A DNA stretch of 10,419 nt from Escherichia coli (GCF_003334385.1 NZ_QOWN01000068.1), one strand, 5' to 3'; shown: positions 9,106-10,102, counted from the stretch's first letter. Translations and numbers: made by a program. Notes: generated by a model not told the origin, from the sequence alone.

Positions 9106-9127
9106 TAGCTAACCAACGAGGCTAATA

Positions 9128-9529
9128 ATGGAATTTAAAGATTTACCAATGCAATTCCAGGAAATGGCAGCGAATATAGTTCGTTCCCAACTGGCGACTC
9201 TTGACCTGAGTACCGTAGAAAAAGAAACCATCGATACTATATCCGGTAACGTGCGTCGTGCCTTTATAGGTCTGTATGAAGAGAAGCGCCTATTCGGCGG
9301 ACAGAATTCGCCTGAAAACAAGAATCAAGCAAATGATGAGAAGCTGAAACACATTATCGCCTTACTTTTGGAAGACGCAAAACGTCTACAGCAACTGGAA
9401 CCAAATGCAGGCACAGAGGCCCGCATTTGGATTGCCATGAAATCACTCAAATGTGAAAGCAGTGATTATTTCAAAACAACAATTAAAACTACTCAACTTT
9501 CGGGAGAGCTACTGAAGAAATTGCCATAA
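9128..9529 (+). CDS. Hypothetical protein (133 aa) in an AT-richer segment
   Basis: ORF with GAGG about 7 nt upstream of the ATG; no recognisable motifs; composition visibly more A/T-rich than flanking DNA (by eye). Confidence 0.55.
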   Translation: MEFKDLPMQFQEMAANIVRSQLATLDLSTVEKETIDTISGNVRRAFIGLYEEKRLFGGQNSPENKNQANDEKLKHIIALLLEDAKRLQQLEPNAGTEARIWIAMKSLKCESSDYFKTTIKTTQLSGELLKKLP

Positions 9530-9767
9530 GAGCACGGTCTTTCTCTTGTTCTGCAAGATGAGCATTAATACCTGGTATGGTTTTTTCAAATTTATCTATC
9601 TGTTGAATAACAACTTCGCGGTATACGTTTGTTTTTGTACCACCAAGCGCAGCCGTTAATGCAGAAAGCATATTTAGTATCATATCAGTGCGATATGAAA
9701 GAATCCTGATAGCTTCATCTTGTTCTTCAATAATAGATTGCAGGGCCTCAATTTGCTTTTTATCCAT
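9489..9767 (-). CDS. Hypothetical protein (92 aa), convergent with and overlapping the 133-aa ORF
   Basis: Internal ATG at 9767 (MDKKQIEALQ...) has a strong GGAGGG Shine-Dalgarno 4 nt upstream, whereas the tracked start at 9806 has none; predicted helical and acidic; 41-nt 3' overlap with the plus-strand ORF. Confidence 0.5.
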   Translation of the reverse strand: MDKKQIEALQSIIEEQDEAIRILSYRTDMILNMLSALTAALGGTKTNVYREVVIQQIDKFEKTIPGINAHLAEQEKDRALMAISSVALPKVE

Positions 9768-10102
9768 TTCACCCTCCTGAGGGTTGGTAATTAAGGAGTT
9801 CTCCACGGGTCAGGTGGAGTGCGTGCGCCGGACACGGGTGAGCATCCGGCACTGACAGCTTACTGAAAGGATATGTCCCTGAAAAGTCAGGGCATAACGC
9901 GAAAGCGCACGGCGAAATTGGTCTCTCTGTACGGTGTCGTTAAATTTAGTTCGACCGTGCGCTTCCGGTTGTGGCACTCCGCGAAATGGCGCGGCGGTAA
10001 GTATGGCTGGGGTTTCCTCCATTGCTCCAGAAAATGCACCGGGTTGTCAGGTTGACCATACGCTTAAGTGACAACCCCGCTACAACGCCCTCTGTTATCA
10101 AT

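What the first reader, a model, noticed from the sequence alone, without database searches (positions are those of the whole stretch)
9110..9800. AT-richer convergent two-gene module inside the ydfABC-dicF-dicB-type operon
Between the ydfC-like ORF and DicF lies a roughly 700-bp stretch that looks clearly more A/T-rich than its neighbours. It holds a 133-aa plus-strand ORF and a 92-aa minus-strand ORF with a strong GGAGGG ribosome-binding site, overlapping at their 3' ends. An opposite-strand gene embedded in a repressor-controlled operon, with atypical composition and no recognisable family, is the signature of an acquired cargo (moron) gene. It could encode a toxin/antitoxin-like or phage-exclusion function. 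I cannot tell whether reference dic loci carry the same segment.
Basis: partly seen in the sequence, partly recalled or inferred. Interest (0 to 1): 0.62.

Follow-up and report, generated by a model that had tools for sequence, protein, structure and literature searches.

The report
Antisense prophage cargo gene beside DicF
The flagged stretch is real but holds two separate things: an ordinary, mosaic gene of the prophage's dicB operon, and a small opposite-strand gene of unknown function in a swappable slot (sieB in the Rac prophage) that probably serves phage-versus-phage conflict.

Summary
A 133-aa plus ORF (9128-9529) and a 92-aa minus ORF (9489-9767, GGAGGG RBS) converge with a 41-nt overlap. 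They lie in a 656-bp segment (9126-9781, GC 0.40) that K-12 Qin lacks exactly.

The two ORFs are not one module.
- **Plus ORF:** an operon-sense mosaic gene. Its first 162 nt occur in 934 of 5426 complete E. coli genomes, and its C-terminal half is a free-standing 71-aa gene in Salmonella.
- **Minus ORF:** a genuine gene (dN/dS 0.08-0.26) and the true cargo. The full segment occurs in only 124 genomes.

The minus ORF starts exactly behind a conserved 84-nt leader of three hairpins, one of which sequesters the SD. The same leader precedes at least 11 unrelated small ORFs in other prophages, or nothing. The upstream spacer shares conserved blocks with the kilS-sieB spacer of Rac, so this is the sieB slot.

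The protein is soluble and helical. It has no Pfam, NCBIfam, PADLOC, PDB or fold match.

The likeliest role is a lysogen-expressed accessory gene for phage exclusion or defence. This is inferred, not shown. A toxin-antitoxin pair is unlikely because each gene occurs without the other.

The parts
9126..9781 (.). 656-bp segment present here but absent from K-12 Qin; GC 0.402
   Evidence: blastn against NC_000913 joins window 9125 to 9782. No terminal repeats.
9128..9529 (+). 133-aa operon-sense ORF of unknown function. It is a mosaic of an N-module (aa 1-62) common in dic-type prophages and a C-module (aa 69-133) that is a separate 71-aa gene in Salmonella.
   Evidence: PHROG 1363 covers the whole protein. 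No Pfam or NCBIfam hit. The AF2 model is poor, pLDDT 59.
9489..9767 (-). 92-aa antisense cargo ORF: soluble, mildly acidic (pI 5.15), predicted three-helix protein of unknown function (PHROG 18692)
   Evidence: (dN/dS 0.08-0.26).
9489..9529 (.). 41-nt convergent 3' overlap of the two ORFs. The minus-ORF frame is the constrained one.
   Evidence: The same 41-nt overlap occurs in Salmonella and in a P2-like prophage with a different partner gene. The C-terminal motif SSVALP is kept in homologues with no overlapping partner.
9772..9777 (-). Shine-Dalgarno GGAGGG of the minus ORF
9768..9851 (-). Conserved 84-nt leader shared by unrelated cargo ORFs. It has a 5' hairpin (9827-9850), a second hairpin (9801-9819) and a helix pairing CUCCU (9794-9798) with the SD AGGAG (9774-9778).
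   Evidence: Helix 2 has four different self-complementary sequences. The SD helix switches CUCCAU/AUGGAG to CUCCU/AGGAG.
9857..9885 (-). Inferred weak sigma-70 promoter for the minus ORF (-10 TAAGCT at 9862-9857, -35 TTTTCA at 9885-9880, 17-nt spacer)
   Evidence: Inference only. A TAnnnT hexamer lies about 6 nt upstream of the 5' hairpin in most upstream sequence classes, including non-homologous ones. It was not found by the consensus scan.
9852..10103 (.). Conserved structured spacer between the leader and DicF (the 'long untranslated region' of the dicBF operon). It includes a 13-nt long-range helix, 9900-9912 with 9955-9967.
   Evidence: Shares conserved blocks with the kilS-sieB spacer of Rac. 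The functional strand is not resolved.
10104..10155 (+). DicF sRNA
   Evidence: Rfam RF00039, 77 bits.
10339..10419 (+). 5' part of dicB (runs off the window)
   Evidence: Translation METLLPNVNTSEGCFEIGVTISNPVFT. Annotated as dicB in the near-identical record.
8887..9105 (+). ydfC, here with an in-frame amber codon at codon 30 (8974-8976)

Best explanation
The flagged segment consists of two independent units that a deletion removed together in K-12 Qin.

**Unit 1, the 133-aa plus ORF.** It is a sense-strand gene of the DicA-type-repressor-controlled early operon (ydfA-ydfB-ydfC-[this ORF]-DicF-dicB-ydfD-recE). It is transcribed only when the operon is derepressed. It was assembled by recombination from an N-module common to dic-type prophages and a C-module that is a separate gene in Salmonella.

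**Unit 2, the 92-aa minus ORF.** It is a cargo (moron) gene in a hypervariable antisense slot lying next to the conserved spacer that precedes the DicF/KilS-type sRNA. Rac carries sieB in this same slot.

**How the minus ORF is probably expressed (inferred).** It is transcribed against the operon from a weak promoter just upstream of a conserved 84-nt leader. The leader's 5' hairpin would stabilise the mRNA and its third helix partly masks the SD. There is no terminator between the convergent genes. When the operon fires, its transcript therefore runs antisense through the whole cargo gene, which should shut the cargo off.

**What the protein probably does (inferred).** It is a small soluble helical protein that most likely acts by binding another protein. 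I think its most likely role is a prophage-expressed function in conflict between phages, either superinfection exclusion or defence.

**Shown here:** the anatomy, the indel, the distribution, purifying selection, the shared leader with compensatory changes, and the correspondence of the slot to the sieB slot.

**Inferred:** the promoter, expression in the lysogen, and the biological role.
For: - **Indel.** The 656-bp segment is an exact indel against K-12.
- **Distribution.** Flanks are in 3356 genomes, the N-module in 934 and the full segment in 124, out of 5426.
- **Alternative states of the locus.** O157 Z1815 has a 124-aa plus ORF and no minus gene. FORC_043 has the same 133-aa plus ORF with a different 57-aa minus gene.
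- **Both ORFs are under purifying selection**.
- **Same arrangement elsewhere.** A 93-aa homologue is convergent with a 71-aa ORF, with the same 41-nt overlap, ahead of a DicF-like element, ydaE and recE/recT in Salmonella prophages.
- **Slot survey.** Of 130 leader instances, 64 have a cargo ORF called automatically. These fall in 11 unrelated families (30-100 aa) that begin at the same ATG behind the same SD. This family is the commonest, at 29 loci. Another 37 instances are empty like K-12 and 22 are like O157.
- **Leader structure.** It has three hairpins, with compensatory substitutions in helices 2 and 3.
- **Rac parallel.** Rac reads racR-ydaG-ydaF-[sieB on the opposite strand, 3' overlap]-kilS-kilR-ydaE-racC-recE, and its kilS-sieB spacer shares conserved blocks with the spacer here.
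- **A defence gene behind the same leader.** In an integrase-bearing island the leader heads an operon ending in AbiH (PADLOC E = 4.7e-22).
- **Contexts of distant homologues.** They sit beside a cI-type repressor, beside a P2-type cox/repressor/integrase region, and beside an integrase with restriction-modification genes.
- **Functional phages.** The spacer and leader also occur in sequenced phages such as Evi, with a 77-aa cargo.
Against: - No promoter was found by the consensus scan. The proposed -10/-35 match only 7 of 12 positions (counted by eye).
- No terminator was found for the minus transcript.
- No expression data were available.
- The conserved spacer folds at least as well in the operon sense (alifold -51.4 against -44.5 kcal/mol). 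Part of its conservation may therefore serve DicF biogenesis rather than the cargo gene.
- No cargo family, including this one, matches any known defence, exclusion or counter-defence protein.
- The 92-aa protein has no membrane segment, unlike SieB.
- The structure model is only moderate (pLDDT 70). Fold searches returned only its own family.
- The AbiH example is a single locus in a different kind of element.
Confidence: 0.55

Rival explanations
1. The two convergent ORFs form a toxin-antitoxin-like or otherwise obligate functional pair.
For: The pair recurs with the same 41-nt overlap in E. coli and Salmonella. There is a weak sub-threshold NCBIfam hit of the 92-aa protein to a RelB-like antitoxin (E = 0.013, 15.7 bits against a cut-off of 50).
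Against: - The genes are convergent, not co-transcribed.
- The 133-aa ORF occurs with a different minus gene or with none.
- Homologues of the 92-aa protein occur with unrelated neighbours or with no overlapping neighbour.
- There are no significant Pfam, NCBIfam or PADLOC matches.
- The recurring overlap is explained by the conserved C-terminus of the minus ORF, which happens to be open on the opposite strand.
Confidence: 0.06
2. The minus-strand unit acts mainly in cis as a brake on the toxic dicF/dicB operon. Convergent transcription and antisense pairing would damp leaky read-through in the lysogen, and the protein would be secondary.
For: - No terminator separates the convergent genes, and 3' overlaps of 23-68 nt are the rule in this slot.
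- The leader is retained even in 'empty' K-12-like loci, where it faces ydfC directly.
- DicF and DicB are known division inhibitors (PMC5069750).
Against: - The protein sequence is under clear purifying selection, and it is conserved in contexts with no dic operon.
- Eleven unrelated coding cargos sharing the same start codon argue that what is selected is the protein.
- About half of the loci have no cargo.
Confidence: 0.12
3. The 92-aa protein is a counter-defence or host-takeover factor, or a modulator of the prophage's own lysis-lysogeny or kill functions, rather than an exclusion/defence factor.
For: - It is a small, soluble, mildly acidic helical protein.
- A hypervariable repertoire of unrelated small proteins behind one conserved element resembles anti-CRISPR and anti-restriction loci (a resemblance from general knowledge).
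- Homologues lie next to repressor genes.
Against: - It is oriented against the early lytic operon, which is the wrong arrangement for a function needed early in infection.
- The cargo does not co-vary with repressor type or with the downstream kill gene. It is found with a 139-aa, a 135-aa and a 128-aa HTH repressor, and with dicB or ydaE downstream.
- The slot corresponds to the sieB slot.
Confidence: 0.2
4. The minus ORF is a chance ORF in an AT-rich non-coding spacer.
For: It has no named family. It is short. It overlaps another ORF.
Against: - dN/dS is 0.08-0.26 against 70-72%-identical homologues, with dS of 0.67-0.89.
- Homologues at 39-44% identity have 17 invariant columns.
- It has a strong SD at correct spacing.
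- The AT skew changes sign across it.
- RefSeq annotates it in all the complete genomes listed.
Confidence: 0.02

Closest known systems
sieB of the Rac prophage (E. coli K-12)
   Same: - It sits in the same slot: on the strand opposite to the early-left operon, convergent with and overlapping the 3' end of the preceding small operon gene.
- It lies between the DUF1391 gene (ydaF/ydfA type) and the sRNA plus division-inhibitor pair (kilS-kilR in Rac, dicF-dicB here).
- The upstream spacer shares conserved blocks with the one here.
   Different: - There is no sequence similarity and no Pfam SieB hit.
- SieB is 162 aa with strongly hydrophobic segments (maximum 19-aa hydropathy 2.19). The 92-aa protein is soluble (0.93).
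- The proximal leader with the SD helix is not shared with sieB.
ydfABC-dicF-dicB operon of the Qin prophage (K-12)
   Same: ydfA, ydfB, ydfC, DicF and dicB occur in the same order at 88-96% identity. The operon lies downstream of a DicA-type repressor gene.
   Different: - K-12 has only a 340-nt untranslated gap between ydfC and dicF, and DicF is described as derived from the ydfC 3' UTR (PMC9438474, PMC5069750).
- Here 656 bp with two genes lie in between, one of them antisense.
- ydfC carries an amber codon.
Morons of lambdoid phages (autonomous extra genes between conserved genes; concept from general knowledge)
   Same: It shows presence/absence polymorphism between otherwise syntenic prophages. 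Its GC content is lower than that of its immediate flanks. Its orientation is independent of the surrounding operon.
   Different: - A classical moron brings its own promoter and terminator. Here the upstream leader is a fixed part of the locus, shared by many different cargos and kept in empty loci.
- No terminator is evident.
Variable-cargo loci anchored by a conserved element (anti-CRISPR/aca loci, P2 defence hotspots; general knowledge)
   Same: Many unrelated small genes alternate at one position next to a conserved anchor.
   Different: The anchor here is an RNA-level leader ending at the start codon, not a neighbouring protein gene. None of the cargos matches a known defence or anti-defence family.

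Membership tests
Moron (lambdoid-phage accessory transcription unit) | Present in some and absent from other otherwise collinear prophages | tested here: met
   Exact indel against K-12. The full segment is in 124 of 5426 genomes while the flanks are in 3356. Alternative cargos or empty slots occur elsewhere.
Moron (lambdoid-phage accessory transcription unit) | Own promoter and terminator | tested here: inconclusive
   The consensus scan found neither. A positionally conserved -10-like hexamer was found by comparison. There is no terminator between the convergent genes.
Moron (lambdoid-phage accessory transcription unit) | Base composition differing from the neighbours | tested here: met
   GC is 0.38 for 9530-9781, against 0.49 on the left and 0.54 on the right. 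The immunity region is equally low.
Moron (lambdoid-phage accessory transcription unit) | Expressed from the repressed prophage | not testable with these tools
   No transcript data were available.
SieB superinfection-exclusion proteins | Sequence homology to SieB (Pfam SieB family) | tested here: not met
   No Pfam hit for the protein or for its family alignment.
SieB superinfection-exclusion proteins | Membrane-spanning hydrophobic segments | tested here: not met
   Maximum 19-aa hydropathy is 0.93, against 2.19 for Rac SieB.
SieB superinfection-exclusion proteins | Genomic position in the early-left operon, antisense, next to the sRNA/kil genes (Rac type) | tested here: met
Type II toxin-antitoxin pair | Two adjacent co-directional, co-transcribed genes | tested here: not met
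   The genes are convergent.
Type II toxin-antitoxin pair | Obligate co-occurrence of the two genes | tested here: not met
   Each gene occurs without the other.
Type II toxin-antitoxin pair | Homology to a known toxin or antitoxin family | tested here: not met
   The only hit is a sub-threshold RelB-like match (15.7 bits against a cut-off of 50). There is nothing in Pfam or PADLOC.
dicBF (ydfABC-dicF-dicB) operon | DicF sRNA followed by dicB, preceded by ydfA/B/C and a DicA-type repressor | tested here: met
   Rfam DicF at 77 bits. dicB N-terminus. ydfA/B/C at 96% identity to K-12. ydfC has an amber codon.
PHROG 18692 (minus ORF) and PHROG 1363 (plus ORF), both of unknown function | Full-length profile match | tested here: met
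   E = 1.1e-61 over residues 1-92 of 92, and E = 7.8e-45 over residues 1-131.

The most novel reading that the evidence does not exclude
The conserved 84-nt, three-hairpin leader with its SD-masking helix may be a portable expression platform. It would mark a previously undescribed hypervariable conflict locus next to DicF/KilS-type sRNAs in lambdoid, P2-like and island elements. Under this reading, sieB of Rac, an AbiH operon and at least 11 families of unknown small proteins are alternative cargos. The 92-aa family, the commonest cargo, would be a new soluble exclusion/defence (or counter-defence) factor that is switched off by antisense transcription when the prophage is induced.
Probability: 0.3. 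Interest if true: 0.7.

Novelty: new member of a known kind. Interest (0 to 1): 0.45.

Why it matters
[quoted passage not shown] In roughly a sixth of complete E. coli genomes another gene lies between ydfC and dicF. In a subset of those, an antisense gene lies there as well, which must affect how the DicF precursor is made.

The antisense slot offers a compact catalogue of small prophage proteins that can be tested directly for phage exclusion or defence. There are 11 families, all of unknown function, and all sit behind one conserved leader.

The leader is itself a candidate translational control element. It is defined well enough to mutate.

Tried and rejected
- **Named-family searches on both proteins.** Pfam, NCBIfam and PADLOC gave nothing significant.
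- **PDB sequence search with the family profile.** Nothing was found.
- **Structure of the 92-aa protein.** The AF2 model has pLDDT 70. Foldseek against PDB and BFVD gave no hit with E below 0.001. Foldseek against AFDB50 found only its own family. HPt-like four-helix bundles appeared at E above 1 and I did not use them.
- **Structure of the 133-aa protein.** The AF2 model has pLDDT 59, too poor to search with.
- **HMMER matches to long kinesin- or ankyrin-repeat-like proteins.** I rejected these as spurious after reading the sequences.
- **Sequenced phages.** A protein search of the phage collection found no copy of the 92-aa gene.
- **Promoter and terminator scan.** It found nothing on the minus strand near the gene.
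- **Rfam at relaxed threshold.** No family covers the leader.
- **Which strand of the upstream spacer is the structured RNA.** This stayed undecided. The consensus folds slightly better in the operon sense, while one conserved G-U pair favours the minus sense.
- **Transposon-like insertion.** Rejected, because the indel ends have no terminal repeats.
- **Literature.** Searches by protein accession and by PHROG id returned nothing. A published TSS data set for K-12 was not held in the library.

Full report
**What the window is.** The window is the early region of an E. coli lambdoid prophage of the Qin/Rac type.
- On the minus strand lie YdaS/YdaT-like genes (7505-7786, 7096-7521) followed by replication genes.
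- On the plus strand lie an HTH repressor gene (7887-8306), ydfA (8572-8727), ydfB (8729-8857), ydfC (8887-9105), the flagged segment, DicF (10104-10155; Rfam 77 bits) and the start of dicB (10339).
- These assignments rest.
- The nearest complete genome, E. coli 025542-1, is 99.9% identical over 9050-9850. It continues with a DUF1482 (ydfD-type) gene and a recE-type exonuclease.

**Check of the observation.**
- The 133-aa plus ORF is at 9128-9529.
- The 92-aa minus ORF is at 9489-9767.
- GGAGGG lies at 9772-9777 on the minus strand.
- The 3' overlap is 41 nt.
- GC is 0.402 for 9126-9781, against 0.489 to the left and 0.540 to the right. Only 1.7% of equal-sized windows are as low, but the immunity region (7500-8400) is just as AT-rich.
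- Against K-12 Qin the alignment runs 8534-9125 (96%) and resumes at 9782 (88%), while the K-12 coordinates are contiguous. So 9126-9781 is an exact 656-bp indel.
- There are no flanking direct or inverted repeats. This is mosaic recombination or deletion, not transposition.

**Both ORFs are real genes.** Salmonella prophages carry a 93-aa homologue of the minus ORF at 70-72% identity. It is convergent with a 71-aa ORF that is homologous to residues 69-133 of the plus ORF, and the overlap is again 41 nt. Nei-Gojobori estimates give dN/dS of 0.08-0.26 for the minus ORF, with dS of 0.67-0.89, and 0.15-0.42 for the plus-ORF C-module.

**The two ORFs are not one module.**
- In complete E. coli genomes the flanks of the segment occur in 3356 of 5426 genomes. 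The first 162 nt of the plus ORF occur in 934. The whole segment occurs in 124.
- O157 strain Z1815 has ydfC followed by a 124-aa plus ORF. This ORF shares the N-terminal 54 codons, then diverges and ends directly at the conserved spacer, with no minus gene.
- FORC_043 has the same 133-aa plus ORF at 91% identity, followed by a different 57-aa minus gene with its own GGAGGA RBS.
- K-12 has neither gene.
- PHROG matches split the plus ORF into an N-module (residues 1-62) and a C-module (residues 69-117). The protein alignment shows the same mosaicism.
- The plus ORF is therefore a sense-strand, recombinationally shuffled member of the operon. The rare acquired element is the minus gene.

**The minus gene sits in a hypervariable slot behind a conserved leader.** Aligning the minus strand upstream of the gene across E. 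coli, Salmonella and a P2-like prophage revealed about 250 nt of conserved sequence. This is the 'long untranslated region' upstream of DicF in the K-12 literature (PMC5069750).
- I scanned IMG/VR for the most conserved hairpin. Together with loci already fetched, this gave 130 instances.
- In 64 instances an ORF was called automatically as starting at the same ATG behind the same SD (…CTCCTTAATTACCAACCCTCAGGAGGGTGAAATG or a variant). Six more appear to be cargo that the rule missed.
- The 64 ORFs fall into 11 unrelated families of 30-100 aa.
- The family of the window's protein, including a 91-aa subfamily, is the commonest at 29 loci.
- A further 37 instances are empty like K-12 and 22 are like O157.
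- No cargo has a known function in PHROGs, NCBIfam or PADLOC. Two are YmfI-family proteins.
- Convergent 3' overlaps of 23-68 nt with the operon gene are usual in this slot.

**Structure of the leader.** The 84-nt leader (9851-9768) folds into three hairpins.
- The first is an invariant 5' hairpin, GCCGGAU…UCCGGC.
- The second exists in four different self-complementary versions: CUCCAC/GUGGAG, CCACACG/CGUGUUGG, CUCCAU/AUGGAG, and UCCCAAC/GUUGGGA with a UCCCGAC/GUCGGGA variant.
- The third is a helix in which CUCCAU pairs with the SD AUGGAG. In the window's type this is replaced by CUCCU/AGGAG.
- The compensatory changes support a real structure that partly masks the SD. This helix is weak: 5-6 bp with a 12-20-nt loop.

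**Correspondence with the sieB slot of Rac.** In K-12 Rac the order is racR-ydaG-ydaF(DUF1391)-[sieB, opposite strand, overlapping the ydaF 3' end]-kilS-kilR-ydaE-racC-recE.
- KilS is an Hfq-associated sRNA from the kilR 5' UTR (PMC8175672).
- The kilS-sieB spacer aligns with the DicF-to-cargo spacer here. The alignment covers the sRNA terminator, the ACAACCGGA(A/G)GCGCAC block and the (G/A)TGCGC(T/C)TTCG block. The last two form a long-range helix, and their A-to-G and T-to-C changes are compensatory.
- The cargo slot therefore corresponds to the sieB slot by shared flanking sequence, not only by analogy.
- The protein is not SieB-like. It has no Pfam match and no membrane segment: its maximum hydropathy is 0.93, against 2.19 for SieB.

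**Other contexts of the family and the leader.** Distant homologues at 39-44% identity keep 17 invariant positions. They lie:
- antisense to the early operon of a P2-like prophage, again with a 41-nt overlap but onto an unrelated 214-aa gene;
- next to an integrase in an island that carries restriction-modification genes and an antitoxin gene;
- next to a cI-type repressor.

In one integrase-bearing island the same leader precedes a 30-aa ORF, a 156-aa hydrophobic protein and an AbiH homologue (PADLOC E = 4.7e-22). The spacer and leader also occur in 45 sequenced phages, including Evi, where a 77-aa cargo sits upstream of a Kil gene.

**The protein.** It has 92 aa and pI 5.15. AF2 predicts three helices (residues 3-41, 46-59 and 69-85) at pLDDT 70.5. 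Foldseek against PDB and BFVD, and the PDB sequence search, gave nothing significant. AFDB50 returned only members of its own family.

**Expression (inferred).** The consensus scan found no minus-strand promoter. By comparison, most classes of upstream sequence carry a TAnnnT hexamer about 6 nt before the 5' hairpin. This includes several classes that are not homologous to the DicF spacer.
- The hexamers seen are TAAGCT or TAAACT in E. coli and Salmonella, TAAAAT in L010, TGT-TATTAT in L012 and TATTTT in L034.
- In the window this gives -10 at 9862-9857 and -35 TTTTCA at 9885-9880, with a 17-nt spacer.
- In a few loci another minus-sense gene is inserted immediately upstream of the hairpin, so read-through from further upstream also occurs.
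- The upstream spacer folds at least as well in the operon sense (-51.4 against -44.5 kcal/mol). I cannot say which strand its conservation serves. It may serve both DicF biogenesis and cargo expression.

**Conclusion.**
- The finding is a correct observation of a real insertion polymorphism in the dicBF operon.
- The 'module' is a composite of an ordinary mosaic operon gene and an antisense cargo gene.
- The cargo gene belongs to a small, uncharacterised, well-conserved family. It occupies a hypervariable slot that corresponds to the sieB slot of Rac.
- A role in exclusion or defence is the best-supported guess. It rests on position, hypervariability, one AbiH example and the island and immunity-region contexts. 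It is not demonstrated.
- A toxin-antitoxin pair is unlikely.

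Noticed in passing
window 8974-8976: ydfC carries an in-frame amber codon (TAG) at codon 30, where the 99.9%-identical genome and K-12 have CAG (Gln). ydfC is therefore truncated or a pseudogene in this strain, which could have polar effects on the downstream operon.
   Followed up: partly
window 2894-3219 (minus strand): A hok/sok-type type I toxin-antitoxin locus. The Rfam sok hit scores 120.5 bits at 3044-3219, and a Hok-like ORF (…MKQQKAMLIALIVICLTVIVTALVTRKDLCEVRIRTGQTEVAVFTAYEPEE) lies at 2894-3106. 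sok hits also occur in several related IMG/VR loci.
   Followed up: no
window 10167-10316 (plus strand): A sub-threshold Rfam match to the sRNA STnc100 (33.6 bits against a gathering score of 47, E = 2e-5) lies in the spacer between DicF and dicB.
   Followed up: no
window 8349-8385: A 16-bp near-perfect inverted repeat (TACCCATGGGTATTTAC…AAATACCTATGGGTA) lies between the repressor gene and ydfA. The scan flagged it as terminator-like. It is more likely the operator or promoter region of the dicB-type operon.
   Followed up: no
L034 4165-6110 (minus strand): The same 5' leader heads a 30-aa proline-rich ORF (MRINQFGGTDRPRPDGQVPYRPTPAPKPKK), then a 156-aa hydrophobic protein, then an AbiH homologue. 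The element is an integrase/ParB-like island, not a dic-type prophage. The 30-aa ORF recurs in L064 and L123.
   Followed up: partly
L024, L044, L124 (regions upstream of the leader hairpin): In some loci an additional minus-sense gene (114 aa, 216 aa or 69 aa) is inserted between the conserved DicF spacer and the leader's 5' hairpin. The antisense region can therefore hold two cargo positions in tandem.
   Followed up: no
L002 (K-12 Qin) 3063-3140, and 37 IMG/VR loci: 'Empty' loci keep the leader up to a few bases before the SD, and it faces the 3' end of ydfC directly. If the inferred promoter is active, K-12 would make an antisense RNA to ydfC.
   Followed up: no
window 9900-9912 with 9955-9967: A conserved 13-nt long-range helix lies in the DicF spacer. 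It has one conserved position that is G-U in the minus sense but A-C in the operon sense. Compensatory changes appear in Rac and Salmonella.
   Followed up: partly
L003 (FORC_043) 1087-1568: This dic-type prophage carries a RelE/ParE-family toxin gene and a small upstream gene, inserted between the repressor gene and the DUF1391 gene. This is another variable position in the same operon.
   Followed up: no
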